Shown in pieces: positions 27,831 through 63,115 of a DNA stretch of 64,000 bases. The notes beneath the pieces are model-generated. The model searched no databases, was not told the DNA's origin, and was given only the letters and a program-made list of their open reading frames with translations. The stretch spans positions 4,154,001 to 4,218,000 of the forward strand of contig CM075988.1 in NCBI GenBank assembly GCA_038087875.1, read 5' to 3'. Both the position numbers and the translations under genes were made by a program. Source of the DNA: Malacoraja senta. Its lineage: Eukaryota. Each line of letters opens with the position of its first letter. Within the stretch, counting starts at the first letter, position 1.

Positions 27831-27878
27831 CACTTATACTGGCCAGTACAAGTATAGGCAGTATGGGATATTGACATT

Positions 27879-39733: not shown

Positions 39734-39749
39734 GGAACACCGTGATTGA

Positions 39750-40868: not shown

Positions 40869-40872
40869 TGAT

Positions 40873-43099: not shown

Positions 43100-43330
43100 C
43101 ACTCACACACTGTGCAGTTTAGTATAGTTTAGTATGGTGTAGTTTAGTTTATTTTAGTTCAGTTTAGTTTTGTTTATTATTGTCATGTATCGAGGTACAG
43201 TGAAAAGCTTTTCCTTGCGTGCTATCTAATTAAATAAAAAAACGTAAGTGATTACAATGAATCTGTCCACAGTGTACAGATAAAGAATACACGGTACAAC
43301 ATTCAGTGCAAGATCAAGTCCGATTAAACA

Positions 43331-43780
43331 AGGATGTTGCTAGGACTCAAGGGCCAGAGCTATAGGGAGAGGTTGAGCAGGCTAGGACTCTATTCCTTGG
43401 AGCACAGAAGGATGATGGGTGATCTTATAGAGGTGTACAATATCACGAGAGGAACGGGTCGGGTAGACGCACAGAGTTTCCTGCCCAGAGTAAGGGAATT
43501 GAGAACTGGATGACATAGGTTTAAGCTGAGGGGAAAAAGATTTAATAGGAACCTGAGGGTGTAACTTTTTCACACAAAGGGTGGTGGGTGTATGGAACGA
43601 GTTGCCGGAGGAGGTAGTTGAGGCAGGGACTGCTAAGAAACATTTAGACAGGTACATGGATTCGACAGGTTTGGAGGGATATGGGCCAAACGCATGCAGG
43701 TGGGACTAGTGTAGATGGGACGTAGGTTGGTGTACAACGTGGGCCAAAGGGCCTGTTTCCATGCTGTATGACTCAATGAC
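43331..43780 (+). mobile_element. CR1 3' fragment
   Basis: RML.GL...SYRERLSRLGLYSLE.RRM.GDLIEVY, FFTQRVVGVWNELPEEVVEAG. Confidence 0.85.
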
Positions 43781-44341
43781 GCTAAGGATAGTTCAAAGGT
43801 CTCCAATGAGGTAGATGGTAGACCACGACCGTACTCCTGCTAGTGAGATGACCATTCAGTTGCCTGATACCAGCTTGGAAGAAACTGTTCTTGAATCTGG
43901 TAGTATGTATTTTCACACTTCTGTGCCTCTTGCCTGATGGGAGAGGGGAGAAGTGGGAGTGATCGTGGTGAGAGTGGTCCTTGATTATAATGTCTCCAAA
44001 GTGGAACTGACTCGCTTCTTTTTCCACAGATGGATAAACAAAAAGGCTGGAAAAACTTGGATAGTTTTCTCTGGAGCATCGAAGACTGAGGGGAGACCTG
44101 ATAGAAGTATTTAAACTTATGAGAGGCTTGTATAGGGTAGGCATTCAGAACCATTTCCCCATGGTGGAAATGTCAAAGACTAGCGGACATAGCTTTAAGT
44201 GAGAGGGGCAGAGTGTAAAGGAGATCTGGGGGGGGCAATTCGTTTACACAGAGGGTGGTGAGTGCCTTGAAAGTGTTGCCAGTGCTGCATCATGAGCTGC
44301 CAGTGCTGCAACATCAGCATCGGAGGCATCATGAGCGTGGA

Positions 44342-44746
44342 ATTTAGACTTTACACTTTAGAGATACAGCACAGAAACAAGTCCGTCAGCACGCCAAGTC
44401 CATGCCACCCAGCGATCACCCATACGCTAGCACTAAACTACACATTAGGGACAAGTTACAATTTTTCCAAAGTCAATTAACATACAGATCTAAAATAGTC
44501 ACACAAAGCTGGAGTAACTCAGCAGGTCCGACAGCATCTCTGGAGAAAAGGAATAGGTGATGTTTCGGTTGAGACCAAAAACTGATACGCTTTTGGAGTG
44601 TTGGAGGAAACCGGAGCACCCAGAGAAAACCCACGCAGTCACAGGAAGAATGTAGCAAACTCCGTACACAGAGCACCCGTAGTCAGGATCGAACCCAGGT
44701 CTGTGGCGTTGTAAGGCAGCAACTCTACCGCAGCGCCACTGTGCCA
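44342..44746 (-). mobile_element. HE1-like SINE with an embedded Penelope-derived unit (about 44500-44585)
   Basis: SINE halves are colinear around the insert. Confidence 0.75.
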
Positions 44747-44877
44747 CGTTCAGATAGACACATGGATACGTAGAGAATGGAGGCATATGGATCACGTGCG
44801 GGCAGAGAAGATTAGTTTAACTTGGCACCACGTTTGTCATGGACATTGTGGACTGAAGGGCCTGTTGTGCTTCTCTA

Positions 44878-46730
44878 TGTTGTATTGTATATCTTTATTG
44901 TCATTTCCTGAGTATTCGCATACCCAGAGGAAACAAAAAAACGTTCCTCAACCAGTGTCCATTTCAGTGTGCAGTAAAAAATAAATAGAAGTAAAAATAC
45001 ATATATCATGAACAAATTAACACTCTACTCTCTACTAAACATCAACAGGCGTTCCGATCGGCAGTGGCACGACAGTGGCTCTGCTGCAGTGTGTCCAGGT
45101 TGGTGGTTGGTGCACGATACTTTGGCAGGGGGGCAAAGTCCGTTTATCAGTCTTATAACCTGCGGGAAGAAGCTGAGGAGCATCCTGCTGGTTTTGCACC
45201 TAATGCTCCGGTACCTCTTCCCAGATGGCAGGATGGAGAATATGTAATGCGATGGGTGGTAGGGGTCTTTGATGATGGAGATGGCTCTGCTGATACATCT
45301 CTTCCTGTATATGTCCAGCAGGAAAGGGAGTGGAGCACCAATAATCCTGCTGGCGGTCTTCACAATCCTGTCTAGTTGGTGCCGTTCGTACGCCTTGCCA
45401 GGCGCCCGAACCAGGAAGTGATGCCGTAGGTTAATGTGCTCTCGATTGTCCCCCTATAAAAAGTTCGTAGGTGTGTAGTGGGGAGACCTGCTTTACGTAG
45501 TCTTCGGAGAGGGTGTAGTCGCTGCTGGGCTCTCTTGACCAGTGCTGTGGTGTTGGTCGTGGACGTCAGGTCATCTGACAGGTGGAGTCCTAGGAACTTC
45601 ACGCTGTTGACCCTTTCCACATCAGCTCCATCGATGTGCAGAGGTGTATGGTGTTGTTTTCCCACCCTCCTGAAGTCAACCACCATCTGCTTGGTTTTTT
45701 CCACGTTGAGAATGAGGTTGTGGGATTTGCACCATCCTGTGAGCAGCTCCACCTCCATCCTGTACGCCGACTCATCATTGTCACTGATGAGACCCACCAC
45801 TGTTGTGTCATCAGCGAACTTGTTGATGAAGTTGTTGTTGAGTCTAGCAGTACAGTCGTGTGTTAGCAGACTAAACAGCAGGGGGCTTAGGACACAGCCT
45901 TGGGGCGAGCCAGTGCTCACGGCTATGGTTTTTGATGTCCTACTGCCTACCCTGACTGTCTGCTGCCGTTGCGATAGAAAGTTCAGGACCCAGTTACATG
46001 TACCAGCATCAACCCCCAATAGCTCTAACTTCTCCACCAGCTGCTGCGGAATGATTGTATTAAAAGCAGAGCTGAAGTCTATGAAGAGGATCCTGGCATA
46101 AGTATTTTTCCGATCAAGGTGTGACAGTACGAGGTTCAGTGTTGTTGAGACTGCGTCCTCTGTGGATCGGTTGGCTCTGTAGGCGAACTGCAGTGGGTCT
46201 AGGTCGGCAGGTAGACTATTTTTGATATGCTGCATAACCAGTCGCTCAAAACACTTCATTACTATGGGTGTTAGAGCCACTGGTCGAAAGTCATTATGGC
46301 AGGCTGGGTTTGGTTTCTTCGGGACAGGGACGATGGTGGCACTCTTAAGACAGTTGGGCACTACTGCCTGGCTGAGCGAGATGTTAAAAATGTCTGTGAA
46401 GACATCTTTCAGTTGCTCGGCGCAGTCTCTTAAAACGCATCCAGGAATGTTGTCCGGCCCTGCAGCTTTGCGTGGGTTGAGGCTGGCAAAGGCCTTTTTA
46501 ACTCCGGCTGCGGACAGCCTGAGCGACTGGTCACTGGGAGATGGCAGTAGTGCACGTGTCTGGGTGGTGTTTCCAACCTCAAACCGTGCCTAGAACTCGT
46601 TCAGTTCATCTGGTAGAGAGGGGTCATTTTGGCATATCCGCAGCGGGGGAGGGGCTTGTAGTCAGTGATGGTATGAAATCCCTGCCACAAGCGACGTGTG
46701 TCTTTGTCATTTGCGAAGTGGCTATTAAGT
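44878..46730 (-). mobile_element. Rex1/Babar LINE, 5'-truncated, RT domain largely open
   Basis: ORF 45372-46361: [45 protein letters not shown]; continues by frameshift into 45025-45363 (LPSGKRYR...SFFPQVIRL). Confidence 0.93.
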
Positions 46731-46750
46731 AATGTTCTATACGTTTTTCT

Positions 46751-47060
46751 TTAGTTTAGTTTTGAGATACAGCATGGAAACAGGTCCTTCGGCCCACCGA
46801 GTCCACACCGACCAGCGATCCCCACACATTAACATTATTGTACACAAACTAGGGACAATTTTACACATTCCCTAAGCCAATTAAACCTACAAACCTCTAC
46901 ATCTTTGGAGTGTGGGAGGAAACCGAAGATCTCGGAGAAAACCCACACAGGTCATGGGGAGAACGTACAAACTCCGTACAGATAGCACCCGTAGTCGGGA
47001 TCGAACCAGGTCTCCGTCACTGCAAGCGCTGCAAGGCAGCAACTCTACCGCTGTGCCACC
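46751..47060 (-). mobile_element. HE1-like SINE
   Basis: Head, body and tail. Confidence 0.85.
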
Positions 47061-47259
47061 ATCCTCTATGACTTACCGAGTGACCCATTATTTATAACTA
47101 CAGCTCCTCGTTCTCGATCCTCCCATTACAGATAAGATCCCCTCCCCATTCATCCTGTCATGACCCATCATGCTTTTATGTTTCGTTCAAATGTCCATCT
47201 AGTCTTCTAAATGCAGCAGGATCAATCCTCTCCGGTGCGATCAGTCGTGTAGTGAACCT

Positions 47260-47560
47260 GTGGCACAGTGGCACAGCGGTAGAGCTGCTGCCTTACAGCA
47301 CCAGTGACCCGGGTTCAATCCTGACTACGGGCACTGTCTGTATGGAGTTTGTACGCTCTCCCTGTCACCGGATGGGTGGATTTCCTCTGGGTGCTCCGGT
47401 TTCCTCCCACACTCCAAAGACGTGCAGCTTTGGAGACTAATTGGCTTGGTAAAATTGTAAATTGCCCGAGTGTGTGTAGGATAGTGCTAGTGTACGGGGT
47501 GAAAACTGGTCAGCACGGACTCGATGGGCCAAAGGGCCTGCTCCTGCGCCGTTTCTCTAA
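47260..47560 (+). mobile_element. HE1-like SINE
   Basis: Head, body and tail; head-to-head with the previous copy. Confidence 0.8.
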
Positions 47561-48496
47561 TGTTTCTCTAACCTACTGTATGTGCACATCGAACATATAA
47601 ATCAGACTGAACGGCTTCTAACATTAAATAAAGAGACGGGTACTATTTACAGTACTTCACATGTAATCTTGTACATACCCTGGATAGATTAAATTATAAC
47701 CTTTCAACTTTGGCATTCATTTCCCCCAGCAATAATGTCTAATGCTCTTAAAACTATTCCAATTAGATGCTGAAGATGCATCATAGCCTATTGTAATTCA
47801 TGCACTGGATATTTCAGGATTCTGCAATCTCTCCGTCGAAAGGTGTTTCTTTTTTTAATTTTTCTGCCAAAACTGATAATGTTACATCTTTCTACATTTT
47901 GCCAGAGCACCACTGTGTTCACTCAACTAATTTATATTCCTTTCCAGCCTCTTTATAACCACTTCACACCTTACGTCCCTTTCATTTTGCTAACATCAGC
48001 AAATTCAACAACCATGCCATTTGTGCCTTCATCCAAGTTATTTATGTGGTTATAAAAAGTTAAGGGCTCAGCAACGATCCCCATGGTACGCCACTCATTT
48101 CAGCTCGCCAACCAGAAAAAGGCCCTTTTACGCTTGCTGTTTGATTTCTGTTGGACAGACAGTCGTACCTCCGACACCGGGAGTTTTTATTCTGTACAAT
48201 AACCATTAATGTGGCACTTATCAAATGCTTTCTGGGTCTCTACTGTGTGTACAGTACATTCACTAGTTCCATGTTCAACCCAAGATAGACACAAAAAGCT
48301 GGAGTAACTTAGTGGGTCAGACAGCATCTCTGCAGAATAGGAATAGGTGATGTTTTGGTTCGAGCCCCTTCTTCAGACTGATGTTACTTCTCTCCAGAGA
48401 TGTTGCCTGAATCGCTGAGATACTCCACCATTTTGTGTCTATTTCCGGTTTAAACCGCCATCTGCAGTTCCTTCCTACACATTTTCCACCCGTATA

Positions 48497-48934
48497 CAAG
48501 CTGTCCTTGAGGTACATAGAAACATAGAAACATAGAAAATAGGTGCAGGAGGAGGCCATTCGGCCCTTTGTGCCAGCACCGCCATTCATTGTGATCATGG
48601 CTGATCGTAAGAATTACTTTCCATGAACCCTTACGAAAGTCAGATTTTACATAAGTTGGAATCACCATCCCCATACCCTGCCTGAAATAACTCACAGAGA
48701 GAGTATTAACTGTCCTGGCGGTGTCCAGCTGCGTCCAGGGCACTTTCTGTATCGTGTGGCCTTCTGGGTAAACACCACCGCCATTGCCAGCTTGTTTCCA
48801 ACGGAAACTTGAGTGATCGTACAGTGTTGTGAAAATTACAAACTGCCTTGGTTGCACCAGGGACTAATTCCAGGTTTGTTCACGTAAGTGTAAGTTTACG
48901 TTAGTCACCTGTTACGTATGTCGGGGAGTGTCTG
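48497..48934. mobile_element. Old Tigger/pogo-like non-autonomous DNA transposon, interrupted by a CR1 tail (about 48515-48606)
   Basis: TA on both sides; degenerate TIRs caagctgtccttgaggtac / gtatgtcggggagtgtctg; internal CGTAAG-type repeats. Confidence 0.4.
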
Positions 48935-49279
48935 TAGCCTCTTTTTTCCAAGAAACCATCCCTTTCTTATGCCTTAGTTTTAAGTTGAGTTTAGAGATAC
49001 AGTATGGAAACATTAGGCCCTCTGGCCCACCATGTCAGCACCAACCACTATCCTACACACCAGGGACAATTTACAATTGTTTTTCAAAGCCAATTAACCG
49101 ACAATCTGTACGTCTTTGAAGTGTGGGAGGAAATCAAAGCGCCTGGGGAAACAATTGGTTGGATTCATCGGTTCAATTTCATTTCAATATTTTTGTGAAC
49201 CTTAGAAGGCAGGAGGAAAATATGAAGTCAAGGTGCAAGGTAATGCATTTGGCATACCTCTCCAACAGAACACAACTGT

Positions 49280-49587
49280 GGGTGGCGTGGTTGCGCAGCA
49301 GGAGAGTTGCTGCCCTACAGCGCCAGAGACCCGGGTTCGATCCTGACTACGGGTGCTGCCTATATGTAGTTTGTACGTTCTTATTGTAACCGTGTGGGTT
49401 TTCTCCGCGATTTTGGCTGCCTCCCACACTCCAAATACGTGCAGGTTTGTAGGTCAATAGGTTTAGCTAAAATCGTAAATTTTCCCTAGTGTGTTCGACA
49501 GTGGTAGTGTATGGGGTGATCACTGGTCAGCACAGTCAGTCGGCCGAAGGGCCTGTTTCTGCGGTGTATCTCTAAACTAAACTAAAC
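49280..49587 (+). mobile_element. HE1-like SINE
   Basis: A/B boxes, body and tail. Confidence 0.85.
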
Positions 49588-49889
49588 CACATACAATCTG
49601 CAGTCTCACCAATTCGCTCCGCCTGGACTCAAGTCAAATCAAGTTGAGTTTATTGTCCTATGCATAGGCTTGCAACAACATCACAGACACATAGATTCAG
49701 CCAACACACGAAACATAAATTATAGATAAGTTATAGGAACATTCTACCAATCAATGAAAGAGAAAGATTGTGTAAAAACAAAAACATAATTGGAAAACAA
49801 ATAAAAATTAAATAGAAACATCACCTCAGGAAATAATGTTTTGATTGTCTTATCAAATGTATTAATGCTGTATAGAGACATAGAGGCAG

Positions 49890-50445
49890 GGAGTGATACA
49901 GTGTGGAAACAGCCCCTTCAGCCCAACTTGCCCACACTGACCAACATGTCCCAGCTACACTAGTCCCACCTGCCTGCGTTTGGCTCATATCCCTGTAAAC
50001 CTATACTATCCATGTACCTAAATGCTTCTTAAACATTGCAATAATACCAGCCTCAACTACCTCCTCTGGCAGCATGCTCCATGCACGCACCTCCCTTTGT
50101 GTAAAAAAGTTAGTCGTTAGATTCCTATTAAATCTTTCCTCCCTCACCTTAAACCAATGTCCTTTTGATCTCGATTTCCCTACTCTGGGCAAGAGACTCT
50201 GTGTCTACCCTATCTATCCACCTCATGATTTTGTACACATCTATAATATGCCCCCTCATCCTCCTGCAATCCAAGGTTTAGAGTCCCAGCATGCTCAACC
50301 CCACTACATAGCTCAGGTCCTTGAGTCCTGGCAACATCCTGGTAAATCTCTGCACCCATTCCAGCTTGACACCATCTCTCCTACAACAAGATGCCTAGAA
50401 CTGAACATGATACTCCAAATGCAGCCTCACCAACATCTTAACTAA
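49890..50445 (-). mobile_element. CR1 3' fragment
   Basis: ORF 50001-50192 (FFTQR.V.AW..LPEEVVEAG) and a CR1 tail. Confidence 0.85.
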
Positions 50446-51007
50446 CTGCATGAGAGAGGGAATATTAGATTTTGCAGATTCATGTTTTGCATCCTTGACT
50501 AATTGTCTTTTTGGCATGACTTCATGATTTTGTGGACCACTGCTGTTCATGATGTATATTATCTATCTTCAGGAGTCAGGGGGAGTTCCCCCCACCACGG
50601 GTACCATGTAATCCCCCACCTGGTTTGCCAGATGAGGAAGGGGCTGTGGACCCCCAGCAGGACCAAAAACAAGACCTTTCAAAGGGCGGATGAGCTTCTA
50701 GCGAGCCAACGGCCATCCACACTTCAGCAAAAGTTGCGATCACTGTCGTAGGTAGCATTGTAAGGAACGATGATAAAGCACACACACCAAAATCCTATAC
50801 TTCTAGCGGCAGAAGTCCGCAGGAACTGGAGGTCAGAGATGTGTGGTACGTCCGTCATCGTTCCCGTTGGAAACCAGCACCACTGTGACACTAACGTTTT
50901 CAACAATGATGAATGAATGAATGAAGGAGTGCCAGTCATACCATGTGCTGCTCTCCCAATTTGACAATCACTTCCTTGTGTAGGAAGGAACTGCAGATGC
51001 TGCTTCA

Positions 51008-51355
51008 TGGGCCAATCCCACTTACGCGACTTTTTCGGCGACTGCCAGCACCCGTCATAGGTCACCGAAAATTTTCAACATGTTGAAAATTCAGTGGCGA
51101 CCAGAAAGACGCTACGGCTCTTTGGGTGACTGAGGAGACGACTCACGACCATACAGGTGACACCCTGGCGACATATCGCGGGGTGAAACCTGTATGGTCG
51201 TGAGTAATCGCCCAAATACCTGTATGGTCGTGAGTAATCAACCTTGTTCTGGTCGCTGCTGGATTTTCAACATGTTAAAAACTTTCGGCGACCTGCAATG
51301 ACCTATGACGGGTACCGGCAGTTGCCGAAAAAGTCGCTTATGTGGGACAGGCCCT
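51008..51355. mobile_element. PIF/Harbinger-like MITE (348 bp)
   Basis: TIRs of about 100 bp; TCA duplicated (51005-51007 and 51356-51358); the flanks rejoin into a Penelope-derived unit. Confidence 0.85.
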
Positions 51356-51482
51356 TCAGACCGAAGATAGACATAAATAGCTGGAGAAACTCAACGGGAC
51401 AGGCAGCATCTCTGGCAAGAAGACCCTTCTACAGACTAGTCAGAGGAAGGGAAATGAGAGATACAGACGGTGATGTGGAGAG

Positions 51483-53272
51483 ATAGAAAATAGGTGCAGG
51501 AGGAGGCCATTCGGCCCTTCGAGCCAGCACCGCCATTCATTGTGATCATGGCTGATCGTCCCCTATCAATAACCCGTGCCTGCCTTCTCCCCATATCCCT
51601 TGACTCCACCAGCCCCTTGAGCTCTATCTATCTCTCTCTTAAATCCATCCAGTGATTTGGCCTCCACTGCCCTCTGTGGCAGCGAATTCCATAAATTCAC
51701 AACGCTCTGGGTGAAAACGTTTTTTCTCACCTCAGTCTTAAATGACCTCCCCTTTATTCTAAGACTGTGGCCCCTGGTTCTGGACTCGCCCAACATTGGG
51801 AACATTTTTCCTGCATCTAGCTTGTCCAGTCCTTTTATAATTTTATATGTTTCTATAAGATCCCCCTCATCCTTCTAAACTCCAGTGAATACAAGTCTAG
51901 TCTTTTCAATCTTTCCTCATATGACAGTCCCGCCATCCCAGGGATCAATCTCGTGAACCTACGCTGCTCTGCTTCAATCACAAGGATGTCCTTCCTCAAA
52001 TTAGGAGACCAAAACTGTACACAATACTCCAGATGTGGTCTCACCAGAGCCCTATACAACTGCAGAAGAACCTCTTTACTCCTATACTGAAATCCTCTTG
52101 TTATGAAGGCCAACATTCCATTAGCTTTCTTCACTACCTGCTGTACCTGCACGCCAACTTTCAGTGACCGGTGTACAAGGACACCCAGGTCTCACTGTAC
52201 CTCCCCCTTACCTAACCTAACCCCATTGAGATAATAATCTGCCCCCTTGTTTTTGCCGCCAAAGTGGACAACCTCACATTTATCTACATTATACTGCATC
52301 TGCCACGCATCTGCCCACTCACTCAACCTGTCCAGGTCACCCTGCAACTTCCTAACATCCTCTTCACAGTTCACACTGCCACCCAGCTTTGTGTCATCTG
52401 CAAACTTGGTAGTGTTGCTCCCAATTCCCTCCTCCAAATCATTAATATATATGGCAAACAGTTGCGGCCCCAACACCGAGCCTTGCGGCACTCCACTCGC
52501 CACTGCCTGCCTTTCTGAAAAGGACCCGTTTATTCCTACTCTTTGCTTCCGGTCTGCCAACCAATTTTCTATCCATGTCAACACCCTACCCCCAAGACCA
52601 TGTGCTCTAATTTTAGTCACCAGCCTCCCGTGTGGGACCTTATCAAATTCTTTCTTAAAGTCTAGATACACTACATCCACTGGCACCCCTTCATCCATTT
52701 TACTTGTCACATCCTCAAAAAATTCCAGAAGATTAGTCAAGCATGATTTCCCTTTCATAAATCCATGTTGACTTGGGCGAATCCTTTTACTGCTATCCAA
52801 ATGCCCCATTATTACCTCTTTAATAATTGACTCCAGCATCTTTCCCACCACCGAAGTCAGGCTAACTGGTCTGTAATTCCCCGTTTTCTCTCTCGCTCCT
52901 TTCTTGAAAAGTGGGATAACATTAGCTATCCTCCAATCCACAGGAACTGATCCTGAATCTATTGAACATTGGAAAATGATCACTAATGCGTCCACTATTT
53001 CTAGAGCCTTCACCCTGAGGACCCTGGGATGCAGACCATCAGGCCCAGGGGATTTATCACCCTTCAGTCCCATTAGCCTACCCAACACTATTTCTCGCCT
53101 AATGAAAATTTCTTTCAGTTCCTCTACCCCCTTAGAACCTCTGTCCTCCAGTACATCTGGGAGATTGTTTGTGTTTTCCTTAGTGAAGTCAGATCAAAAC
53201 TCTTCTGCCATTTCCTTGTTGCCCATAATAATTTCACCCGTGTCTGCCTTAAAGGGACACACATTTGACTTT
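51483..53272 (-). mobile_element. CR1 LINE, 5'-truncated, inserted in a Penelope 3' UTR
   Basis: ORFs 52192-53088, 51853-52152 and 51566-51805 with KSPGPDG, YRPVSLTS, GVPQGSVLGP, FADD. Confidence 0.95.
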
Positions 53273-53640
53273 GATAAAGAGCAATGAATGAAAGATGCAA
53301 AAAAGTAACGATTATGAATGAAACTGGCCATTATTAGCTGTTTGTTGAGTAAAAATGAGAAGCTGGGGCAACTTGGGTGGGGGAGGGATGGAGAGAGAGG
53401 GAATACTGAGGTTAATTTAAGTTAGATAAATTAATATTCATACCACTGGATTGTACCTGACAATGGGGGAGGCTGAGGACAGAAAGGTCAGTGTGGGAAT
53501 GGGAAGGAGAATTAAAGTGTTTGGCAACCGGGAGATCAGGTAGGTCCAGGCGGACTGAGTGAAGGTGTTCAGCAAAACAAACTCCCAGTCTACTTTTGGT
53601 CTCGACGATGTATAAGAGTGCTTGTGCTTTGTTTTAACAA
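53273..53640 (-). mobile_element. Penelope GIY-YIG end and 3' UTR, continuing at 51359-51485
   Basis: Colinear with 57290-57840. Confidence 0.8.
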
Positions 53641-53802
53641 CGTGTTTAACATGTTTAAAGGAAAGTGCTTTGTTAAAATGTCCATGAAAACGTTTGACAT
53701 AAAGTTCTTCACTGCACAAGAAATTTGGCTTTGAGAAACGTCAACCAATGACACGTGACTAAAGCTGTTCTTCTGGGTGTCTATCCCGTAGACACACGAT
53801 GT

Positions 53803-53972
53803 ACTGTACGTCTTTGGAGTGTGGGAGGAAACAGAAGATCTCGAAGAAAACCCACGCGGTCACGGGGAGAACGTACAAACTCCGTACAGACAGCACCTGT
53901 AGTCGGGATCGAACCCACGTCTCCGGCGCTGCATGTGCTGTAAGGCAGCAACTCTACCGCTGCGCCACCATG
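53803..53972 (-). mobile_element. HE1-like SINE, 5' half
   Basis: A/B boxes and body. Confidence 0.8.
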
Positions 53973-54468
53973 TTGCTCTGTTCTATTCTCTTGTCTTTCT
54001 GGAGACATTTTAAGAATCTAGGTTTTCTCAAACTCCATCTATGTTTGGACAGATTGATCAGTTCTGACTATAACATCTGTCTCCATGGGCACCTGATTTG
54101 TCAGTGGGATAGTTCTCCTTTAAACCATCAGTGAGCTCACAAATCTAATAGTCAGGGTACTTGATACAGGTGAAATAATGCTCTCCCTAACCTGGATGAA
54201 GCTTCTGCTGGAGATCTGAGCCTGGAAGGTCAATGGGAGGTCAATGCTCTGATCAAGATCATGTAATGGAAAGATGGTATTCTGCTGAAGACAGACACAA
54301 AATGCTGGAGTAACTCAACGGGACAGGCAGCATCTCTGGATGGAAGGAATGGGTGACGTTTCATATCGAGACACTTCTTCAGACTGAGAGTCAGGAGAGA
54401 GGGAGACACAGAGATATGGAAGGGTAAGGTGTGAAAACGAGTTGTCTGGAATGAAACCAGGTTGACTC

Positions 54469-54721
54469 GGTGGCACAGTGGTAGAGTTGCTGCCTCACAG
54501 TGCCAGAGACCCAGGTTCGTTCCTGACTACGGGTGCTGTCTGTGCAGAGTTTGCACATTCTCCCTGTGACCGTGTGGGTTTGTATGTTAATTGGCTTCTG
54601 TAAATTGTAAATTGTCCCTAGTGTGTACGATAGTTCTAGTGTACAGGGTGATCGGTGTTCGGTGCGGACTCAGTGGGCCGAGGGGCTTGATTCCGCGCTG
54701 TATCTCTAAACTAAGCTAAAC
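54469..54721 (+). mobile_element. HE1-like SINE
   Basis: Head, internally deleted body and tail. Confidence 0.8.
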
Positions 54722-55992
54722 AAAGGAACTGCAGATGCTGATTAATACACAAAAGGACATAAAGTGCTGGAGTAACTCAACAGGTCAGGCAGCATTCCTG
54801 GAGAACATGAATAGGTGACGTTTCGAGTCAAGACATCTGAAGAAGGGTTTCAACCTGAAACATCACCTATCCATGTTCTGCAGAGATGCTGCCTGACCCG
54901 CTGAATTACTCCAGCACTTTGTGTCCTTTTGGTAATAATAGTCAGCATCTATGACCTATTTAGAAATAATTTAATACTAAAGTATTTTGAATGGCCATTC
55001 TGCCTGACTGTAATAACTCTATATGTTTAGTTTAGTTTAGCTTAGTTCAGAGATACAGCAGGAAACAGGCCCTTCGGCCCATTGAGTCCGTGCTGACCTT
55101 TACCCACACGTTTGCATAGTTCTAACTTATACCATTTTCTCATCCACGACCGACACTTTAGAGGGCTATTTTTACAAGAGGGCCTATTAACCTATAAACC
55201 TGCAGGTGCTTGGGATATGGGAGGAATCTAGAGCACCTGGATGAAACCCACGCAGTCACAAGGGGAACGTGCAAACTCTGCACAGAGAGCAAAAAAGGCC
55301 TGGAGTGAAACTGGGTCTACAGCTCTCCCAGCTGTGCCTGTCTGCTGCCCATATTAAGAATAGGATAGTGCTGGTGTATGGGGTGATCACTGGTTGGTGT
55401 GGACTCATTGGGCCAACAGGCCTGTTTTAGTTCAGTTTAGTTTATTGTCACATGTACCGAGGTACAGTGTTGCGTGCTAACCAGCCAGTGGATTATAATC
55501 AAGCCATTTACAGTGTATACAATAGATAAATGACAAGGGAATAACGTTTAGTGCAAGGTAAAGCCAGTAAATTCTGATCAAGGATAGTCTGAAGGTCACC
55601 AATGAGGTAGATAGTAGTTCAGCGCTGCTCTCTGGTTGTGGGAGGATGATCCCGTTGCCTGATAACAGCTGGGAAGAAACTGTCGTTGAAACTGGAGGTG
55701 TGCCTTTTCACACTTCTATTCCTTTTGGCCGCCACGCTGTATCTCTAAAGTCTAACGCCTAAAGAGAAACAAATGCTTCTGTGACTATTAAATATGAGCT
55801 AACTATTTGAAGAGAAATAACTTTCCTTGAAAATGCATACTTTCATGAGATATCTAGCTTTGGGAATTTAGAGAAATATATATTCCATGAAAAAATGGTA
55901 AGTGATCCCTTTCTGATGCTAGAATCAGTCGTGGGGATTGAAAATAATAAATCATTGATTATCACTTCAGGTAAATAGACAATACTGAATGC

Positions 55993-56287
55993 GTGGCACG
56001 GTGGCGCAGCGGTAGAGTTGCTGCCTTACAGCGCTTGCAGCGCCAGAGACCCGGGTTCGATCTCAACTACGGATGCTGTCTGTACAGAGTTTGTACGTTC
56101 TCCCCATGACCGCATGGGTTTTCTCTGAGCTCTTTGATTTCCTCCCACACGCCAAAGACGTACAGGTTTGCAGGTTAATTGGCTTGAGTATAAGATTGTC
56201 ACTAGTGTGCGGAGGGAATCACTGGTCGGTGCGGACTCGGTGGGCTGAAGGGCCTGTTTCCATGCTGTACCTCACTTAACTAAACTG
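55993..56287 (+). mobile_element. HE1-like SINE
   Basis: TGGCGCAGCGG A box, GGTTCGATCT B box, body and tail. Confidence 0.85.
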
Positions 56288-56771
56288 AATCTTGGCTGGT
56301 TGCTTTACCACGGGTCACGGCTGGAATTAGTGGCACAGGGGGAGAGAAAAACAACTTGCAGTGAAAGTCCCTTTAGCAGGAGGAGCCATTGGTTCATTAG
56401 TGGAGTAAGATACGATGATGAAGCTGTCGTAATGGAAACATATGCTGTTCATCAGACAACAGCTGTTTCCCATTGAAATAATGGAGTTCTATTTCCATTC
56501 CATCAGGACACAATCACAACCCAGAATTCGCCCATTTAGCTCTGAAATGAGTTGCATTAATAACACTTCATAAAAGGACTATTCATCGTGGGAAATTTGC
56601 TTTGAATTCCTCCCTTGTCAACAGTTATTGTAAATCATCGATACATTTTTATAAGTAATGCTAATTCTCAGGAATAGCACAAGTGGAACATGGAAGCGGG
56701 TGGGAGGAGGAGGTCACCGATCGTGGATGGCTTGGTTCCTCCCAGTTAGCAAATGGCTTGAGTCCGTTAAG

Positions 56772-57190
56772 TGATGGCGGGACTGTCACATGCTGAGAGA
56801 ATGGAGCGCCTGGGCTTGTACACTCTGGAGTTTAGAAGGATGAGAGGGGATCTTATTGAAACATATAAGATTGTTGAGGGTTTGGACACACTAGAGGCAG
56901 GAAACAGTTTAAGAATAAGGAGTTTAGAACAGAGACGAGGAAACACTTTTTCTCACAGAGAGTGGTGAGTCTGTGGAATTCTCTGCTCAGAGGGCAGTGG
57001 AGGCGGGTTCTCTGGATACTTTTAAGAGAGAGCTAGATAGGGCTCTTAAAGATAGCGGAATCAGGGGATATGGGGAGAAGGCAGGAACGGGGTACTGATT
57101 GGGGATGATCAGCCATGATCACATTGAATAGTGGTGCTGACTCGAAGGGCCGAATGGCCTACTCCTGCACCTATTGTCTATTCTATTGTC
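56772..57190 (+). mobile_element. CR1 3' fragment
   Basis: MAGLS..ERMERLGLYTLEFRRMRGDLIETYKI and the 3' UTR hairpin aagggccgaatggcct. Confidence 0.88.
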
Positions 57191-57287
57191 AGTGTCCTAG
57201 ATGGCCAATGTGGGGAAGGATATCTGCACAGCTGTGCATTGTGGCCAGGTCAAGCTATCAAAGTAAACCACAACAAAGCACATGACA

Positions 57288-57985
57288 ACAAAAAGCTGGA
57301 GTAACTCAGCGGGACAGGCAGCATCTCTGGAGACAAGGAATGGGTGACGTTTCGGGTCGAGACCCTTCTTCAGACTGGTTAGGCATAAGGCAAACGAGAG
57401 ATATAGACGGTGATGTGGAGAGCTAAAGAACAATGAATGAAAGATCTGAAAAAAGTAATGATGATAAAAGAATCAGGGCATTATAAGCTGTTTGAAGGGT
57501 GAAAACGAGAAGCTAGTGCAACTTGGGTGGGGGAGGGATAGAGAGAGAGGGAATGCCAGGGCTACCTGAAGTGAGAGAAATCAATATTCATACCACTGGG
57601 CTGTAAGCTGCCCAAACAAAATATGAGATGCTGTTCCTCCAATTTGTGTTTAGCCTCACTCTGACAATGGAGGGGACCGAGGACAGAAAGGTCTGTGCAG
57701 GAATGGGAAGGAGAATTAAAGTGTCCAGCAACCGGGAGATACGGTTGGTTCACACAGGCTGAGCGAAGGTGTTCCGCGAAACGATCGCCCAGTCTACGTT
57801 TGGTCTCGCCGATGTATAAGAGTCCACATCTTGAACAACGGATACAGTAGATGAGGTTGGAGGAGCTGCAAGGGAACCTCTGCATCACCCGAAAGGACTG
57901 TCGGGGTCTCTGGACAGAGTTGAGGGAGGATGTATAGCGACAGGAGTTGCATCTTCTATGGTTGCAGGGGAAGCACATGGACACT
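57288..57985 (-). mobile_element. Penelope-like element (Neptune-type) 3' portion: GIY-YIG endonuclease and 3' UTR/pLTR
   Basis: ORF 57562-58002: FPC..RRC.SC, NLIYCIRCSRCGLLYIGETKRRLGDRFAEH, LGSLQPSGMN; the UTR contains the hammerhead-like motif. Confidence 0.92.
57341..57376 (-). ncRNA. Candidate minimal type-I hammerhead ribozyme (best-preserved copy)
   Basis: Minus strand AGT-CTGAAGA-A-GGGT(CTCG)ACCC-GAAAC-GTC-ACCCA: both core boxes, stem II and an NUH triplet, with only a palindromic ACGT in place of helix III. Activity is untested. Confidence 0.65.
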
Positions 57986-58214
57986 GTGTGTTCAAATAGC
58001 ATAGAGTCACAGCATCATACAGCAGGGAAACAGGCTCTTCAGCCCAACTCGTCCATGCCGACCAAGATGCCCAATCTAAGCTTGTCCCATTAGCCTGTGT
58101 TTGGCCCATTTCCTCTAAACCTATCCAATCCATGTTGGAAGTTGACCAATCCAAGTTGACCTTTCACTGCCGTAACAGGCATAGATCAGTATCATGTATA
58201 GATCATCAGATGTT

Positions 58215-59255
58215 ACATAGATACATAGATACATAGAAAATAGGTGCAGGAGTAGGCCATTCGGCCCTTCGAGCCTGCACCGCCATTCAATATGATCATG
58301 GCTGATCATCCAACTCAGTATCCCGTACCTGCCTTCTCTCCATACCCCCTGATCCCCTTAGCCACAAGGGCCACATCTAACTCCCTCTTAAATAGAGCCA
58401 ATGAACTGGCCTCAACTACCCTCTGTGGCAGAGAGTTCCAGAGATTCACCACTCTCTGTGTGAAAAAGTTTTTCCTCATCTCGGTCTTAAAGGATTTCCC
58501 CCTTATCCTTAAGCTGTGACCCCTTGTCCTGGACTTCCCCAACATCGGGAACAATCTTCCTGCATCTAGCCTGTCCAACCCCATAAGAATTTTGTACGTT
58601 TCTATAAGATCCCCTCTCAATCTCCTAAATTCTAGCGAGTATAAGCCAAGTCTATCCAGTCTTTCTTCATATGAAAGTCCTGACATCCCAGGAATCAGTC
58701 TGGTGAACCTTCTCTGCACTCCCTCTATGGCCATAATGTCCTTCCTCAGATTTGGAGACCAAAACTGTACGCAATACTCCAGGTGTGGTCTCACCAAGAC
58801 CCTGTACAACTGCAGTAGAACCTCCCTGCTCCTATACTCAAATCCTCTTGCTATGAAGGCCAACATACCATTCGCTTTCTTCACTGCCTGCTGCACCTGC
58901 ATGCCTACTTTCAATGACTGGTGTACCATGACACCCAGGTCTCGCTGCATCTCCCCATTTCCTAATCGGCCACCATTTAGATAATAGTCTGCCTTCCTGT
59001 TTTTGCCACCAAAGTGGATAACCTCACATTTATCCACATTATACTGCATCTGCCAAACATTTGCCCACTCACCCAGCCTATCCAAGTCACCTTGCAGTCT
59101 CCTAGCATCCTCCTCACAGCTAACACTGCCCCCCAGCTTAGTGTCGTCCGCAAACTTGGAGATGTTGCTTTCAATTCCCTCGTCCAGATCATTAATATAA
59201 ATTGTAAATAGCTGGGGTCACTGCCTGCCATTGTGAAAAGGACCCGTTTACTCCT
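58215..59255 (-). mobile_element. CR1 LINE 3' part
   Basis: ORF 58315-59085 (WQMQYNVDKC...LVRPHLEYCVQFW...FFTQRVVNLWNSLP) and a (CATAGATA)n tail. Confidence 0.95.
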
Positions 59256-59473
59256 ATGTTGTGGTAAAACTTCCCGCCTCTGAAAACAGATGATTAGGGT
59301 GGTGAATCTGTGGAATGCTTTGCCACAGAAGGCTGCGGAGGCCAGGTCAATGGAAGGCAGGAGAATGGGGTTAGGAGGGAGAGATAGTTCAGCCATGATT
59401 TAATGGCGGGGTAGACTTGATGACCTAATACTGTTCCTATCACTTATGACCTTATGACCTTATGACCTTATGA

Positions 59474-59975
59474 TAGACACAAAATGCTGGGGTAACTCAG
59501 TGGGACAGGCAGAATCTCTGGATGGAAGGAATGGGTGATGTTTCGGGTTGAGACCCATCTTCTGAGTCAGGGGAGAGGGAGACAAAGAAATATGGAAGGA
59601 TAAGGTGTGAAATGGGAGATCAAAGGGGATGAAGTTCAAGGGAAATGTAGGATACATCATTGTTAGCTGAGGGGAAGGAGAAAATGAGGCATTCAATCAG
59701 TAAATGTTAATCAGGAGGACAGTCAAACTGGTTGGAGAACTAGGATGGGGGAGGGATGGAGAGAGAGGGAAGGCAAGTTAGAGAAGTCAATGTTCATACC
59801 ACTGGGTTGTAAGTCGCCAAAGTGAATTATGAGGTGATGTTCCTCTGATTTGTGTTGGGCTTCACTCTGACAGTGGAGGAGGCCCAGGACAGAAAGGTCA
59901 GTGTGGGAATGGGAGGGGGAGTTAAAGTATTTAGCAACCGGGAGATCATATAGGTCTGGGTGGAATGATTGGAGG
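59474..59975 (-). mobile_element. Penelope 3' fragment (degraded GIY-YIG end and UTR)
   Basis: Similar to 57290-57760. Confidence 0.75.
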
Positions 59976-60861
59976 TGTTAAACCTGACTAGAATTATGAG
60001 AGCCAGAGATAGGGTAGACAATTAGAACCTTTTTCACCAAGATGGAAAAATCAAATATTAGAAAGCAAAGCTTTAAGGTAGAGGGGCAAAGTTTAAAGGA
60101 GATGTGTGGGGCAACATTTTTATACAGTGGGTGGTGGTTGCCTGGAACGTGTAGCAGGAGTGGTGGTTGAAGCAGATACAATAGCAACCTTGAAGAGGCT
60201 TTTGGATAGGCAAATAAACACAAAATGCTGGCGTAACTCAACGGGTCAGGTGGTATCTCTGGGGAAAATGGACAGGTGACATTTCGGGTTAGGACCCTTC
60301 TGCAGACGGCATTTGGATAGGCATATGTATATGCAGGGAATGGAGGGATATGGATTATGCACTGGTTGATAATAGATGGAAGATAGACACAAAATGCTGG
60401 AGTAACTCAGCGGGACAGGCAGCATCTCTGGAGAGAAGGAATGGACGACTTTGCGGCTCGAGACCCTTCTTCGGACAATAGATAATAGATAATAGACCAC
60501 CTATTTCAGATCATAGATGGTGTTGGCATCATGACATTATGGGCCAAAGGGCCTGTTCTTGTGCTGTACTGTTCTATGTTCCATGTTTTAAATGTAGCTG
60601 GACCAGCTATATACGGTAACTAATACAAGCCACTTGAGTACGTGATCAGGTAAATTACTCACCCCATACACGCCAAATCGTCCCCCCTACCGAAAAGACA
60701 CAGATCAAGAAGATGATGGAATATTCTTCTTCCCTGGAATAGTCCAATGTGAATAACTCTCAAGAAACTCAACAGCAACAAATTGGCAGCACGTTGCTGT
60801 CCAGTTCTGTTTAATTAGCACTCGATCACCTACCCTAAAGTTTTATTTCCTACACTGCGGA

Positions 60862-61142
60862 TTTAGTTTAGTTTCAACTAACAGCATGGAAACAGGCCCT
60901 TTGGCCGACCAAGTCCACACCAACCAGCAATCCCCGTACACGAGTTCTATCCAACACAAGGGACAATTTACAGAAGACAATTAACATACAAACCTGTAGG
61001 TCTTTGGAGTGTAGGAGGAAACCAGAGCACCCAGAGAAAACCCACGCAGGTCACAGGGAGGACATATTAACTCCACACAGACAACACCCGTAGTCAGGAT
61101 CGAACCTGGGTCTCTGGCGATGTAAGGCAGCAACTGTGCCAC
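60862..61142 (-). mobile_element. HE1-like SINE inserted in an older LINE remnant (about 60690-61440, +)
   Basis: SINE body and tail; the flanks resemble a decayed RT C-terminus (..MEYS...W......LKKL). Confidence 0.7.
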
Positions 61143-61734
61143 CCCAAAATATTGTCCCTCCGCCATCCACAGAATGCACAGCAGCAGGTTTATGGCTAAC
61201 ACCACCGCCTGCAGCTTCCCTTCCAGGTCACACATCAACCTGACAGACACATTTATCGCTGGTCTTTCAGTGTCATTGGGTCCAAATGCTCGTCTTCCTC
61301 CACAACATTACTGTGAAGTTCTGTCGCCAGAAGGGCAGCAGCAGTTCAAGAAAGCAACTCGTTCTCTCAAGGGTCGTTCCATTTGACAACAAACGCTGAC
61401 CTTTCCGGCAACACAGACGTCTCCAAAACTGAATGACCATGAATCACATTTCCCAATTGTGTTTCCCAACACCAGGAGTAAAGGTTATGGCGTGAAGGCA
61501 GGAGTATGGGGATGAGAGGGAAAATAGACCAGCACTGATCGAATGGCCTAATTCTGCTTCTATATCTGTCATAAGACCTGGTGATGTCTGTGGGCAGGCA
61601 GTGGAGGAGGGGGGTGAGAGTGTAAGCACAGGGGTCCTCTGTTAATCTAGGAGACAGACTTAATGATCTTTGATTTCAGCGAAGAAAAGTCCAATTCCTT
61701 ATTCCTCAAACACCCAGCTTACTTGCAGTCATAT

Positions 61735-63115
61735 TCATACAGTGTGGAAACAAGCCCTCCGGCACAACTTGCCCACACCAACCAACATGCCCCGTCTATA
61801 CCAGTCCAACCTGCCCATGCTTAGCACACATGCTTAAACCTATCCTATCCATGTCCAAATGTCTCTTAAACGTTATGACAATACCTGCTTCAACTACCTC
61901 CTCCGGCAGCTCGTTCCATACACCCACCACCCTTTGCGTAAAAAGGTTACCCTTAAGGTACCTATTAAATCTTAAACCTGCGTGCTTTAAACCTAAGATA
62001 GACACAAAATGCTGGAGTAACTCAGTGGGACAGGCAGCATCTCTGGAGAGAAAGAATGGGTGACGTTTTGGGTCGAGACATTTCTTCAGACTGATCTGAC
62101 CTATATCATCTGGTTCTTATTTCCCCTGCTCTTGTGCATTTACGCTATCTATTCCTCTTATGATCATGTGCACCTCTATATATAATCACCCCTCATCTTC
62201 CTCCTCTACACATCCAAGCTACATAACCACAGACCCAGAATAAAAAACACATAGCCAGCAAAACATATTTAATACTTCCAATGATGACAGAACTCACTCA
62301 CCAACGAAGCACCCTGGACAATCATTGTTGGACATGTGCCATTCCTTAGGTCATAATGTCATAAGGTCATAAGTGATAGGAGCAGAATTAGGCCATTTGG
62401 CCCATCAAGTCTACGCCATTCAATCATGACTGATCTATCTGTCCCTCCTAACCCCATTCTCCTGTCTTCTCCCCATAACACCTGACACCCATACTAATCA
62501 AGAATCTATCTATCTCTGCCTTTAAAATATCCATTGACTTGGCCTCCACAGTCTTCTGTTGCAAACAATTCTACAGATTCACCACCCTCTGACTAAAAAA
62601 ATCATCCTCATCTCCTTCCTAAAGGTACATCATAGAGTGAAAGAGTGTAGAAATCGACCCTTCAGCCCAGCTTGCCCACACTGGCCAATATGTGCCAGCT
62701 ACACTGGTCCCACCTGCCCGCGTTTGGTCCATATCCCTCCAAACCCGTCTTATCCATGTACCTGTCGAACTGTTTCTTAAATGTTGGGATAGTCCCTGCC
62801 TCAACTACCTCCTCTGGCAGCTTGTTCCATACACCCACCACCCTACGTGTGAAAAAGTTACCCCTCAGATTTCTATTAAATCTTTTCCCCTTATCCTTGA
62901 ACCTATGTCCTCTGGTACTCGATTCACCTACTCTGGGCACGTGACTGTGTGCATCTAATGTCCTTTAATTCTGAGGCTGTGACCTCTGGTCCTAGACTCT
63001 CCAACTAGTGGAAACATCGTCTCTACATCCACTCTATCCAAGTCTTTCACTATTCGGTAAGTATCAATGAGGTCACCGTCACCCTTGTAAACTCCAGCGA
63101 ATATGGGCCCAGTGT
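61735..63115 (-). mobile_element. Cluster of CR1 3' fragments with a Penelope-derived unit (about 61985-62093)
   Basis: ORFs 61796-62005, 62662-62940 and 62955-63173 carry FFT.RVVGVWN.LPEEVVEAG and ESRTRGH motifs. Confidence 0.85.

What the first reader, a model, noticed from the sequence alone, without database searches (positions are those of the whole stretch)
57288..58002. Hammerhead-ribozyme-like motif in a Neptune-type Penelope 3' UTR, amplified as about 20 short units in the window
Seen: CTGAAGA-A-GGGT-CTCG-ACCC-GAAAC-GTC lies about 190 nt downstream of the GIY-YIG stop (57373-57341, minus). The motif recurs in units of about 100-150 bp at 1067, 1532, 5413, 7191, 10281, 19139, 22274, 27260, 29199, 42088, 54837 (+) and near 40136, 48377, 54382, 62089 (-), many with point mutations. 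A second subfamily (27260) changes N7, the stem-II loop (UUCG) and the triplet (GUU) but keeps the core. Established: Penelope-like elements carry minimal type-I hammerheads that lack helix III and are thought to cleave as dimers. Inference: a very high-copy, possibly non-autonomous hammerhead-bearing retro-unit (retrozyme- or SINE-like) mobilised by Penelope. Stem I pairs only weakly (2-3 bp) in monomers.
Basis: partly seen in the sequence, partly recalled or inferred. Interest (0 to 1): 0.72.

Follow-up and report, generated by a model that had tools for sequence, protein, structure and literature searches.

The report
Penelope stubs starting at their hammerhead
This stretch of a likely skate or ray genome holds 33 insertions of the short end piece of a Penelope-type jumping gene with a known kind of minimal hammerhead ribozyme motif; about half of the copies that reach the motif begin just in front of it, likely because they are dead-end copies that ran off the capped start of the element's uncut RNA rather than a separate self-spreading ribozyme element.

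Summary
The motif is real. CUGAAGA-A-GGGU-CUCG-ACCC-GAAAC-GUC (57373-57346, minus) lies 189 nt after a Neptune-type GIY-YIG stop. It is the known minimal type-I hammerhead of Penelope-like elements: the same core lies behind related endonuclease ORFs in metagenome contigs, with covarying helix I, and window subfamilies differ at 0 of 22 motif columns against 20 of 62 downstream. Here helix I has 2 bp, 3 copies match the intact pattern, and monomers fold into a rival helix, so cleavage is doubtful. The units are not retrozymes: no head-to-tail pairs, 10 inverted pairs, target-site duplications in 9 of 33, two 3' ends matching the Penelope tail, no separate short-unit lineage. Of 26 copies reaching the core, 12 start 1-5 nt before it; 1 of 17 internal starts is at the cut site. 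Contigs from 8 runs show a G excess at that boundary, with a TATA-like box about 30 nt upstream. Best reading: run-off cDNAs from internal priming near the capped 5' end of uncut RNA. This scan reported the same pattern, cap G included, on other genomes.

The parts
57562..57985 (-). 5'-truncated end of a Neptune-type Penelope ORF: CX4CxxC linker, GIY-YIG endonuclease with CxxC/H/H residues, stop at 57564-57562; the left boundary near 57985 is approximate
57378..57561 (-). Pyrimidine-rich 3' UTR (upstream part of the pLTR)
57398..57405 (-). TATA-like TATATCTC, 32 nt before C3 and 29 nt before the inferred start A (function inferred)
57374..57378 (-). Hot spot of 5' ends of short copies (-5..-1 from C3); initiator-like CCAGTCT; inferred capped transcription start at 57376/57375; also the 5' strand of the 2-bp helix I
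57346..57373 (-). Minimal type-I hammerhead motif: CUGAAGA, extra A, helix II GGGU/ACCC with CUCG loop, GAAA, palindromic ACGU, C17; predicted cut between 57346 and 57345
   Evidence: 33.3 bits with model R1
57288..57345 (-). Downstream part of the unit up to the first 3'-end class; its first 12 nt pair with GAAGAAGGGU in the predicted monomer fold
40012..40137 (-). Stand-alone short unit starting at -1, with the 3' tail and a 9-11 nt target-site duplication
27259..27355 (+). Stand-alone short unit of the divergent type (N7=G, UUCG loop, GUU), exact 11-nt target-site duplication
60214..60476 (-). Two neighbouring short units (60476-60379, 60307-60214), both starting at -2, each with its own target-site duplication
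29104..29295 (.). Near-symmetric head-to-head pair joined just before C3
22162..22377 (.). Head-to-head pair; one arm starts at -31, the other exactly at the predicted cut site (+29) and bears the tail; 16-nt target-site duplication
3083..3246 (.). Head-to-head pair, one arm starting at -1 with tail; 13-nt target-site duplication
48274..48480 (.). Head-to-head pair, arms starting at -5 and +34
54723..54925 (.). Head-to-head pair of the third subfamily type, arms starting at +11 and -1
59472..59977 (-). Second 5'-truncated Penelope end: GIY-YIG remnant, UTR, decayed motif
53275..53651 (-). Third GIY-YIG remnant plus UTR, ending before the motif
988..62094 (.). Span of all 33 insertions of the unit; the others start at 988, 1509, 1948, 3351, 3933, 5308, 6767, 7157, 8828, 9363, 10277, 11961, 19119, 19456, 22409, 42031, 42559, 44492, 50978, 51360, 54287, 61983

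Best explanation
The motif is the minimal type-I hammerhead in the terminal repeat of a Neptune-type Penelope-like retrotransposon, and the many 95-130-base units are likely dead-end run-off copies of the front end of the element's capped, uncut RNA. Steps. (1) Shown: the motif sits 189 nt behind a GIY-YIG stop, recurs in 33 insertions and is held constant between subfamilies. (2) Inferred: in a tandem element the upstream terminal repeat starts Pol II transcription 2-3 nt before C3 (initiator-like YCAGTCT, TATA-like box about 30 nt upstream), so the RNA carries the unit at its front and again at its back. (3) Established for the anole Poseidon element, inferred here: the enzyme nicks target DNA and starts reverse transcription inside the RNA at one of two sites, here about +91..96 and +123..130 from C3, which gives the optional tail. 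(4) Inferred: priming on the front copy reaches the cap after 95-130 nt, sometimes copies the cap as an extra G, and is integrated alone or with an inverted second arm; priming on the back copy gives ordinary 5'-truncated copies reaching into the UTR and ORF. (5) Inferred: the template was not cut at GUC when copied. Short units lack the TATA-like box and decay at CpG sites, so they are likely passengers. The ribozyme is likely active only in source-element RNA, as a dimer or with the element's protein.
For: Position and family. Same core 57-585 nt behind Neptune-like ORF hits in 36 of 132 metagenome/MAG matches, against 1 with a downstream same-strand hit and 5 with an opposite-strand hit; helix I covaries there (72 cells changed on both sides, 0 of 500 shuffles as high). 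Subfamily conservation 0/22 against 20/62. 3' ends: 21 of 43 at +84..99, 14 of 43 at +122..130; by those ends the tail is on one arm in 8 of 10 inverted pairs and on none in 2. 5' ends: 12 of 26 at -5..-1, against 4 of 76 within 5 nt in the metagenome families (p=7e-6). In 4 DNA runs, loose ends with random flanks at 57375 and 57376 are among the six best-supported per run, and contig depth over the unit is 15-21 times that over the GIY-YIG end (depth is not copy number). First flank letter is G on the unit strand in 8 of 8 runs at -2 and 6 of 7 listed at -3. TATATCTC or CATATCTC at -32..-36 in 5 of the 8 copies scanned, 2 of which do not reach that far. Target-site duplications 9 of 33. Literature: PMC11167929 (internal initiation, tail, unprocessed RNA as main substrate, protein-assisted ribozyme); PMC11702581 (extra G at full-length L1 junctions reflects the cap).
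Against: No RNA 5' end was observed; all runs were contigs. The G excess is read from consensus first letters only; 4-19% of ends with G would tip them, an A-to-G change could feed the -2 class, one run shows another letter at -3, and the runs share old copies, so they are not independent. In the window only one boundary (5411) clearly shows the G, and several are blurred by microhomology with the target. No copy in the window runs from the tail into an ORF start, so the front copy of the repeat is assumed, not seen. The TATA match is weak (5 of 8 to the recalled TATAWAWR). In D. virilis the same position is a splice acceptor, not a start site (PMC4209133).
Confidence: 0.6

Rival explanations
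1. The short unit is a self-propagating non-autonomous element (a Penelope-dependent SINE): solo units are transcribed from an internal or flanking promoter and recopied by the Penelope enzyme.
For: Sharp 5' boundary, own target-site duplications and a large excess over ORF-linked copies. The divergent type (27259, 9404) occurs only as short copies in the window. D. virilis Penelope has an internal promoter with initiator and downstream element (PMC2377424). Non-autonomous Chlamys elements exist (PMC8557442).
Against: Short and long copies do not separate by diagnostic sites (difference 0.004, permutation p=0.28; 14 short, 12 long). Three of four subfamily types occur in both forms (read by eye). 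The TATA-like box lies outside the short unit.
Confidence: 0.13
2. The boundary is a 3' splice site (pyrimidine tract, CTRAC, CAG before the U at -1): copies derive from spliced RNA or a splicing intermediate, and the 1-3 extra matching bases are exon ends.
For: The UTR is pyrimidine-rich and ends in CAG in both main types. In D. virilis the intron ends at the 5' end of helix I (PMC4209133; PMC2377424).
Against: Flanks at the boundary are random (agreement 0.31), and in several copies they are duplicated target DNA, not an exon. At -3 an exon end would favour A, but G is seen in 6 of 7 (recalled exon-end frequencies). The CTRAC is only 3-6 nt from the AG.
Confidence: 0.1
3. Ordinary premature termination: the enzyme starts at the tail sites of the 3' repeat and stalls or switches template just upstream of the motif, helped by the small CAGTCTG palindrome and by microhomology, with no RNA end there.
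For: Many inverted junctions lie at -1..-4 (9 head-to-head pairs). Palindromes at inverted junctions and self-priming are described for rotifer Penelope elements (PMC3846280). Heavy 5' truncation is typical of PLEs (PMC8557442).
Against: Stand-alone, non-inverted units start at the same place (27259, 40137, 60307, 60476). It does not explain the G excess or the TATA-like spacing. The metagenome families with the same core show no such pile-up.
Confidence: 0.14
4. A true non-LTR retrozyme: units are released by ribozyme cleavage, circularised and reinserted.
For: Head-to-tail joints from -1..-4 back to the unit's 3' part occur in 21-52 contigs per position and run (what lies between is not known). 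One piece (22244) starts exactly at the cut site. Retrozymes related to pLTRs are reported in vertebrates, one cartilaginous fish among them (10.64898/2026.07.22.740005).
Against: 0 of 33 insertions are head-to-tail. Unit ends are not at the cut site: 1 of 17 internal starts. The motif is minimal, with 2-bp helix I, and helix II has probability 0.00-0.11 in monomers.
Confidence: 0.03

Closest known systems
Minimal type-I hammerheads (min-HHR) in pLTRs of metazoan Penelope-like elements (Cervera and De la Pena 2014, PMC4209133; parts 1-2 of 4 read)
   Same: No helix III, palindromic 15.2-16.2 (ACGU), extra base between 9 and 10.1, G10.1-C11.1, location in the pLTR, mostly dispersed single motifs, opposite-strand pairs, reported in Neptune elements of fishes.
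   Different: Helix I is 2 bp (4-5 bp typical; 2 bp in D. virilis) and helix II 4 bp. The parts read do not mention cartilaginous fish or a pile-up of 5' ends before the core.
Poseidon element PAc of Anolis carolinensis (Frangieh et al. 2024, PMC11167929; parts 1-2 of 4 read)
   Same: Two adjacent 3'-end classes 30-40 nt apart (tail) about 100 nt behind the hammerhead; no pile-up of ends at the cut site; uncut RNA as template.
   Different: Different clade (Poseidon, no zinc-finger linker); its ORF starts inside the ribozyme; no start site or run-off products mapped in the parts read.
EN+ Penelope-like elements, Neptune clade (Craig et al. 2021, PMC8557442; Arkhipova et al. 2013, PMC3846280; passages read)
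   Same: C-terminal GIY-YIG with CX2-5CxxC linker, 5' truncation, inverted 5' partner, tail on one arm, target-site duplications, solo pLTRs; a TATA and initiator-like sequence noted in a rotifer pLTR.
   Different: Solo pLTRs there were ascribed to recombination or deletion; here short units carry their own target-site duplications and far outnumber ORF-linked copies.
Non-LTR retrozymes (Cervera and De la Pena 2020, PMC7229834, passages; Li et al. 2026, 10.64898/2026.07.22.740005, parts 1-3 of 5)
   Same: Non-coding, carry a type-I hammerhead, related to pLTRs, depend on Penelope enzymes.
   Different: Defined by head-to-tail repeats (mostly 150-450 bp, canonical motif in the 2020 paper) and circular RNA; the window's units are solo or inverted, 95-130 bp, with a minimal motif.

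Membership tests
min-HHR of Penelope-like elements | Core CUGANGA ... GAAA ... UH with an extra base before helix II and G10.1-C11.1 | tested here: met
   Exact in 3 window copies; majority base at every core position in 26-30 copies; best window hit 33.3 bits with a model built from 37 metagenome motifs, which were themselves fetched with this core
min-HHR of Penelope-like elements | No helix III; palindromic 15.1-16.1 | tested here: met
   A-C-G-U directly between GAA and C17
min-HHR of Penelope-like elements | Helix II with base-pair support | tested here: inconclusive
   GGGU/ACCC can pair and 27260 keeps it with a U-G wobble, but its predicted probability in monomers is 0.00-0.11, against a median of 0.65 in 47 metagenome/MAG motifs
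min-HHR of Penelope-like elements | Helix I of about 4-5 bp | tested here: not met
   2 bp in the window against mostly 4-5 bp in 125 metagenome/MAG matches; PMC4209133 lists a 2-bp variant in D. virilis, so this places it among the atypical variants
min-HHR of Penelope-like elements | Located in the pLTR behind the ORF | tested here: met
   189 nt behind the GIY-YIG stop; second ORF-linked copy at 59977-59472
min-HHR of Penelope-like elements | Self-cleavage at H17 as dimer or with protein | not testable with these tools
   No biochemistry; only contigs available
Neptune clade EN+ PLE | C-terminal GIY-YIG endonuclease preceded by CX2-5CxxC linker | tested here: met
   C-NHRR-C-NS-C before the nuclease, then stop; homologues carry RT upstream (P0025, P0026)
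Neptune clade EN+ PLE | Placement by RT phylogeny (separates Neptune from Nematis) | not tested
   No RT part in the window; assignment rests on the linker and on the report that vertebrates hold Neptune and Poseidon (10.64898/2026.07.22.740005)
Neptune clade EN+ PLE | 5' truncation, inverted partner, optional 30-40 bp tail, target-site duplication | tested here: met
Non-LTR retrozyme | At least two head-to-tail units each with a complete motif | tested here: not met
   0 of 33 insertions; unresolved head-to-tail joints exist in other genomes' contigs
Non-LTR retrozyme | Unit ends or circular junction at the cleavage site | tested here: not met
   1 of 17 internal 5' starts at +29; circular RNA itself not testable
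SINE-like non-autonomous element | Own lineage of short copies distinct from the autonomous partner | tested here: not met
   Permutation p=0.28 on 14 short and 12 long copies; small sample, low power
SINE-like non-autonomous element | Transcription from a promoter inside the short unit | not testable with these tools
   No raw RNA reads; the promoter scan covers bacterial promoters only

The most novel reading that the evidence does not exclude
The stubs are a genomic record of a strong-stop-like step in Penelope replication: the element's capped RNA starts 2-3 nt before the hammerhead core, internal priming on this front copy runs off the cap and is integrated directly, and so the in-vivo template is uncut. 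The invariant 28 nt may be held as much by a core-promoter or protein-binding role as by catalysis, with the 3' flank pairing back onto the core as an off switch.
Probability: 0.45. Interest if true: 0.55.

Novelty: new member of a known kind. Interest (0 to 1): 0.33.

Why it matters
Hammerheads in Penelope terminal repeats have been known since 2014, so the motif itself is ordinary. What these ribozymes do for the element is still open (PMC8557442 calls it unclear), and the one biochemical study found cleavage dispensable in vitro. If the pile-up with an extra G marks the capped start, a very abundant repeat family gives a base-level map of the start site and both priming sites, and says that the RNA copied in the germ line was uncut. 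That is directly testable with an assembly and CAGE. It would also mean that such units should be annotated as Penelope by-products, not as SINEs or retrozymes.

Tried and rejected
Rfam scan of the window: 36 matches at E<=1, none a hammerhead family, mostly microsatellite hits to miRNA models; 8 metagenome/MAG loci also gave none, so Rfam is blind to this motif class. No whole genome is held, so no genome-wide consensus or junction count could be made. Viral contigs: 0 matches. Sequencing runs: no RNA holder listed on record; this says nothing on expression. Splice test on four runs guessed to be RNA (one marked probably DNA): no joint with intron-type ends among the 15 shown of 65; inconclusive. 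Folding z-scores of 6 units were -0.5 to +1.2: no unusual stability. Search with the 43-codon open frame of the unit found 2 unnamed proteins only: no evidence on exonisation. The bacterial promoter scan is not applicable. A downstream-promoter-element match overlapping GAAACGUC was considered; it is 5 of 8 to the RGACGTGY of PMC2377424 and out of register by recall, so no weight was given. Dropped rows: copy 6876 was counted as long although the pairwise call was -4, because the profile hit extends about 20 nt upstream; the palindromic pair 29185/29205 was left out of the 12 (14 of 26 with it). The alignment A1 used 37 of 49 distinct helix-I combinations, chosen by eye to leave out truncated and bacterial-looking ones, so leans towards pairing; the test on all 49 also shows covariation at pairs 1-4 (p<=0.0015). 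Lunse et al. 2016 on dimer cleavage is not held; I saw only its citation in PMC6765202. Literature searches found no paper on this repeat in cartilaginous fish or on capped run-off copies of PLEs; subscription journals, Repbase and the supplements of the papers read (alignments in PMC4209133, tables of the 2026 preprint) were not seen and may hold it.

Full report
Observation. The minus strand reads CTGAAGA-A-GGGT-CTCG-ACCC-GAAAC-GTC at 57373-57346, 189 nt after the stop of a 150-codon frame with a CX4CxxC linker and a GIY-YIG domain. The best protein matches are from skates and rays (65-70% identity), then sharks; longer relatives carry reverse transcriptase upstream. The window is therefore likely from a skate or ray (inference), and the element is a Neptune-type Penelope-like element by its linker (definition in PMC8557442, passages read). 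A profile finds 43 pieces and none in the reversed window; they form 33 insertions. Three GIY-YIG remnants lie in the window.

Is it a hammerhead? Rfam does not see it. PMC4209133 (parts 1-2 of 4 read) defines minimal PLE hammerheads by the missing helix III, a palindrome at 15.2-16.2, an extra base after A9 and G10.1-C11.1; all are present. Of these 36 lie 57-585 nt behind a Neptune-like ORF hit on the same strand, 1 has a hit downstream and 5 on the other strand. The bases outside the search pattern covary as helix I: Watson-Crick fractions 0.78, 0.78, 0.67 and 0.47 at pairs 1-4 against 0.56, 0.33, 0.30 and 0.26 shuffled, over 49 distinct combinations (also on 37 selected rows). A model built from these scores the 57373 copy at 33.3 bits and lists 20 window hits at E<=1; that score is partly circular. 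A zebra shark read-through protein ends in a peptide matching the same frame of the motif (P0007), which suggests conservation across sharks and rays (inferred from protein only). Within the window, columns where at least 3 copies share a non-CpG variant number 0 of 22 in the motif and 20 of 62 behind it (p=0.001). The source elements thus keep these 28 nt, three CpGs included, while inserted copies lose them (mismatch 0.13-0.22 at CpG sites against 0.05-0.10 elsewhere).

Is it active? Not shown. Helix I is 2 bp here against mostly 4-5 bp in the metagenome set. Three copies match the intact pattern. In those three, the sequence just behind the cut site pairs with GAAGAAGGGU, and helix II has probability 0.00-0.11 against a median of 0.65 in 47 metagenome/MAG motifs. 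Inverted pairs place the two motifs on opposite strands and cannot give the cis dimer. Published minimal PLE ribozymes cleave weakly as dimers (PMC4209133; review passage in PMC6765202) or only with the element's protein (PMC11167929, parts 1-2 of 4 read).

Anatomy of the units. With C3 as +1, 21 of 43 pieces end at +84..99 and 14 at +122..130, 3 in between and 5 earlier. This matches the optional 30-40 bp tail, which PMC11167929 traces to two internal start sites of reverse transcription. Ten insertions have two arms, all inverted: 9 head-to-head and 1 tail-to-tail; none is head-to-tail. Target-site duplications of 11-16 nt with at most 2 mismatches flank 9 of 33 insertions, against 0.7-1.3% of 1056 mismatched flank pairs, so units insert on their own. 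Of 26 pieces that reach C3, 12 start at -5..-1 (14 with the palindromic pair at 29104-29295), the rest at -14 to about -610. In metagenome families with the same core only 4 of 76 copies start within 5 nt (p=7e-6). Of 17 pieces that start inside the unit, 1 starts at the cut site. Short and long copies do not form separate lineages (p=0.28; small sample).

Evidence from other genomes. Contigs of four DNA runs from four coded organisms each put about 250,000-276,000 records on the stretch. Summed depth over the unit is 15-21 times that over the GIY-YIG end; the tool warns that depth is not copy number, but the window's 33 insertions against 3 ORF remnants point the same way. Loose ends with random flanks (agreement 0.31-0.32) at 57375 and 57376 are among the six best-supported in each run; none is listed at the cut site. 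Inversion joints cluster at 57373-57377. The first flank letter is C on the plus strand, so G before the unit, in 8 of 8 runs at -2 and 6 of 7 listed at -3, while later letters are mixed or A/T. The 9 listed joint inserts from these two positions also begin with that letter, but several look like variants of the same amplified loci. An extra G at full-length L1 junctions is read as the copied cap (PMC11702581, passage). The signal is qualitative: 4-19% of ends with G would be enough. A TATA-like TATATCTC or CATATCTC lies at -32..-36 in 5 of 8 copies scanned, 2 of which end before that point; I looked for it after an earlier scan note (e1-8021554).

Mechanism. The likeliest reading (0.6) is that transcription starts at -3/-2, so a tandem element's RNA carries the unit at both ends. 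Internal priming on the front copy runs off the cap after 95-130 nt and integrates, alone or with an inverted arm, and priming on the back copy gives the longer truncated copies. The template was uncut, since copies span the cut site and do not begin there. Shown: positions, ends, duplications, conservation. Inferred: start site, cap, front copy, priming sites. Rivals: premature termination at a palindrome (0.14), a self-propagating SINE-like unit (0.13), a splice acceptor as in D. virilis (0.10; PMC4209133, PMC2377424 passages; the splice test was inconclusive) and a true retrozyme (0.03; definition in 10.64898/2026.07.22.740005, parts 1-3 of 5 read, and PMC7229834 passages).

Novelty. The motif, inverted pairs, tail and solo repeats are all described for PLEs (PMC4209133, PMC8557442, PMC3846280), so this is a new member of a known kind. 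My searches found no paper on this repeat in cartilaginous fish or on capped run-off copies; Repbase, subscription papers and supplements were not seen. The scan's own notes report the same units and the same cap reading on other genomes; they are unchecked and are not counted as support. I noted the G excess before reading them. Interest 0.33; the run-off reading would deserve about 0.55 if confirmed.

Noticed in passing
window 29450-35571 (-): Long LINE-like element in several frames: an 834-codon frame without Pfam hit, an endonuclease/phosphatase frame (31931-33082), RT pieces and zf-RVT (29450-31646); looks like a frameshifted L1/Tx1-type element (label recalled).
   Followed up: no
window 27286-27906, 45372-46589, 52192-53193, 58315-59217 (-): Further RT-bearing LINE fragments; 45372-46589 also hits ALKBH8_N. 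One lies between the two Penelope ends at 59.5 kb and 57.9 kb.
   Followed up: no
window 57373-57335 (-), 42088, 27260: The bases just behind the predicted cut site repeat the 3' strand of helix II and pair with GAAGAAGGGU in the predicted fold of all three intact copies: a possible off conformation.
   Followed up: partly
window 5205-5443: An inverted pair of units sits directly beside a (CA)n(TA)n(TG)n palindrome; 9363-9404, 10277 and 11961 sit in short tandem repeats. PMC8557442 mentions a microsatellite bias of linker-bearing PLEs.
   Followed up: no
window 40008-40136 (-): Unit plus tail is open for 43 codons in the frame starting at C3; two unnamed ENA proteins contain this peptide.
   Followed up: partly
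proteins P0006, P0008, P0016, P0037, P0039: Skate, ray and shark gene models named as host genes (RTP3-like, DCC isoform, neuromedin-U receptor, divergent kinase) carry pieces of the Neptune ORF: exonisation or annotation artefacts.
   Followed up: no
L125, L127, L128: Contigs filed in bacterial MAGs hold the motif, two of them behind a Neptune-like ORF hit; likely animal host DNA in the bins.
   Followed up: no
L089, L124, L126: GC-richer matches to the same minimal core without a PLE hit; possibly bacterial hammerhead-like motifs or chance; no Rfam hammerhead hit.
   Followed up: partly
L038, L044, L099, L110: Head-to-head inverted pairs of the motif in metagenome contigs, joined about 20-30 nt upstream of C3, and downstream extents clustering near 55-65 and 105-113 nt behind the motif: a tail-like two-end pattern in other animals.
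   Followed up: partly
window (whole): The window contains 200 N bases; position not looked up.
   Followed up: no
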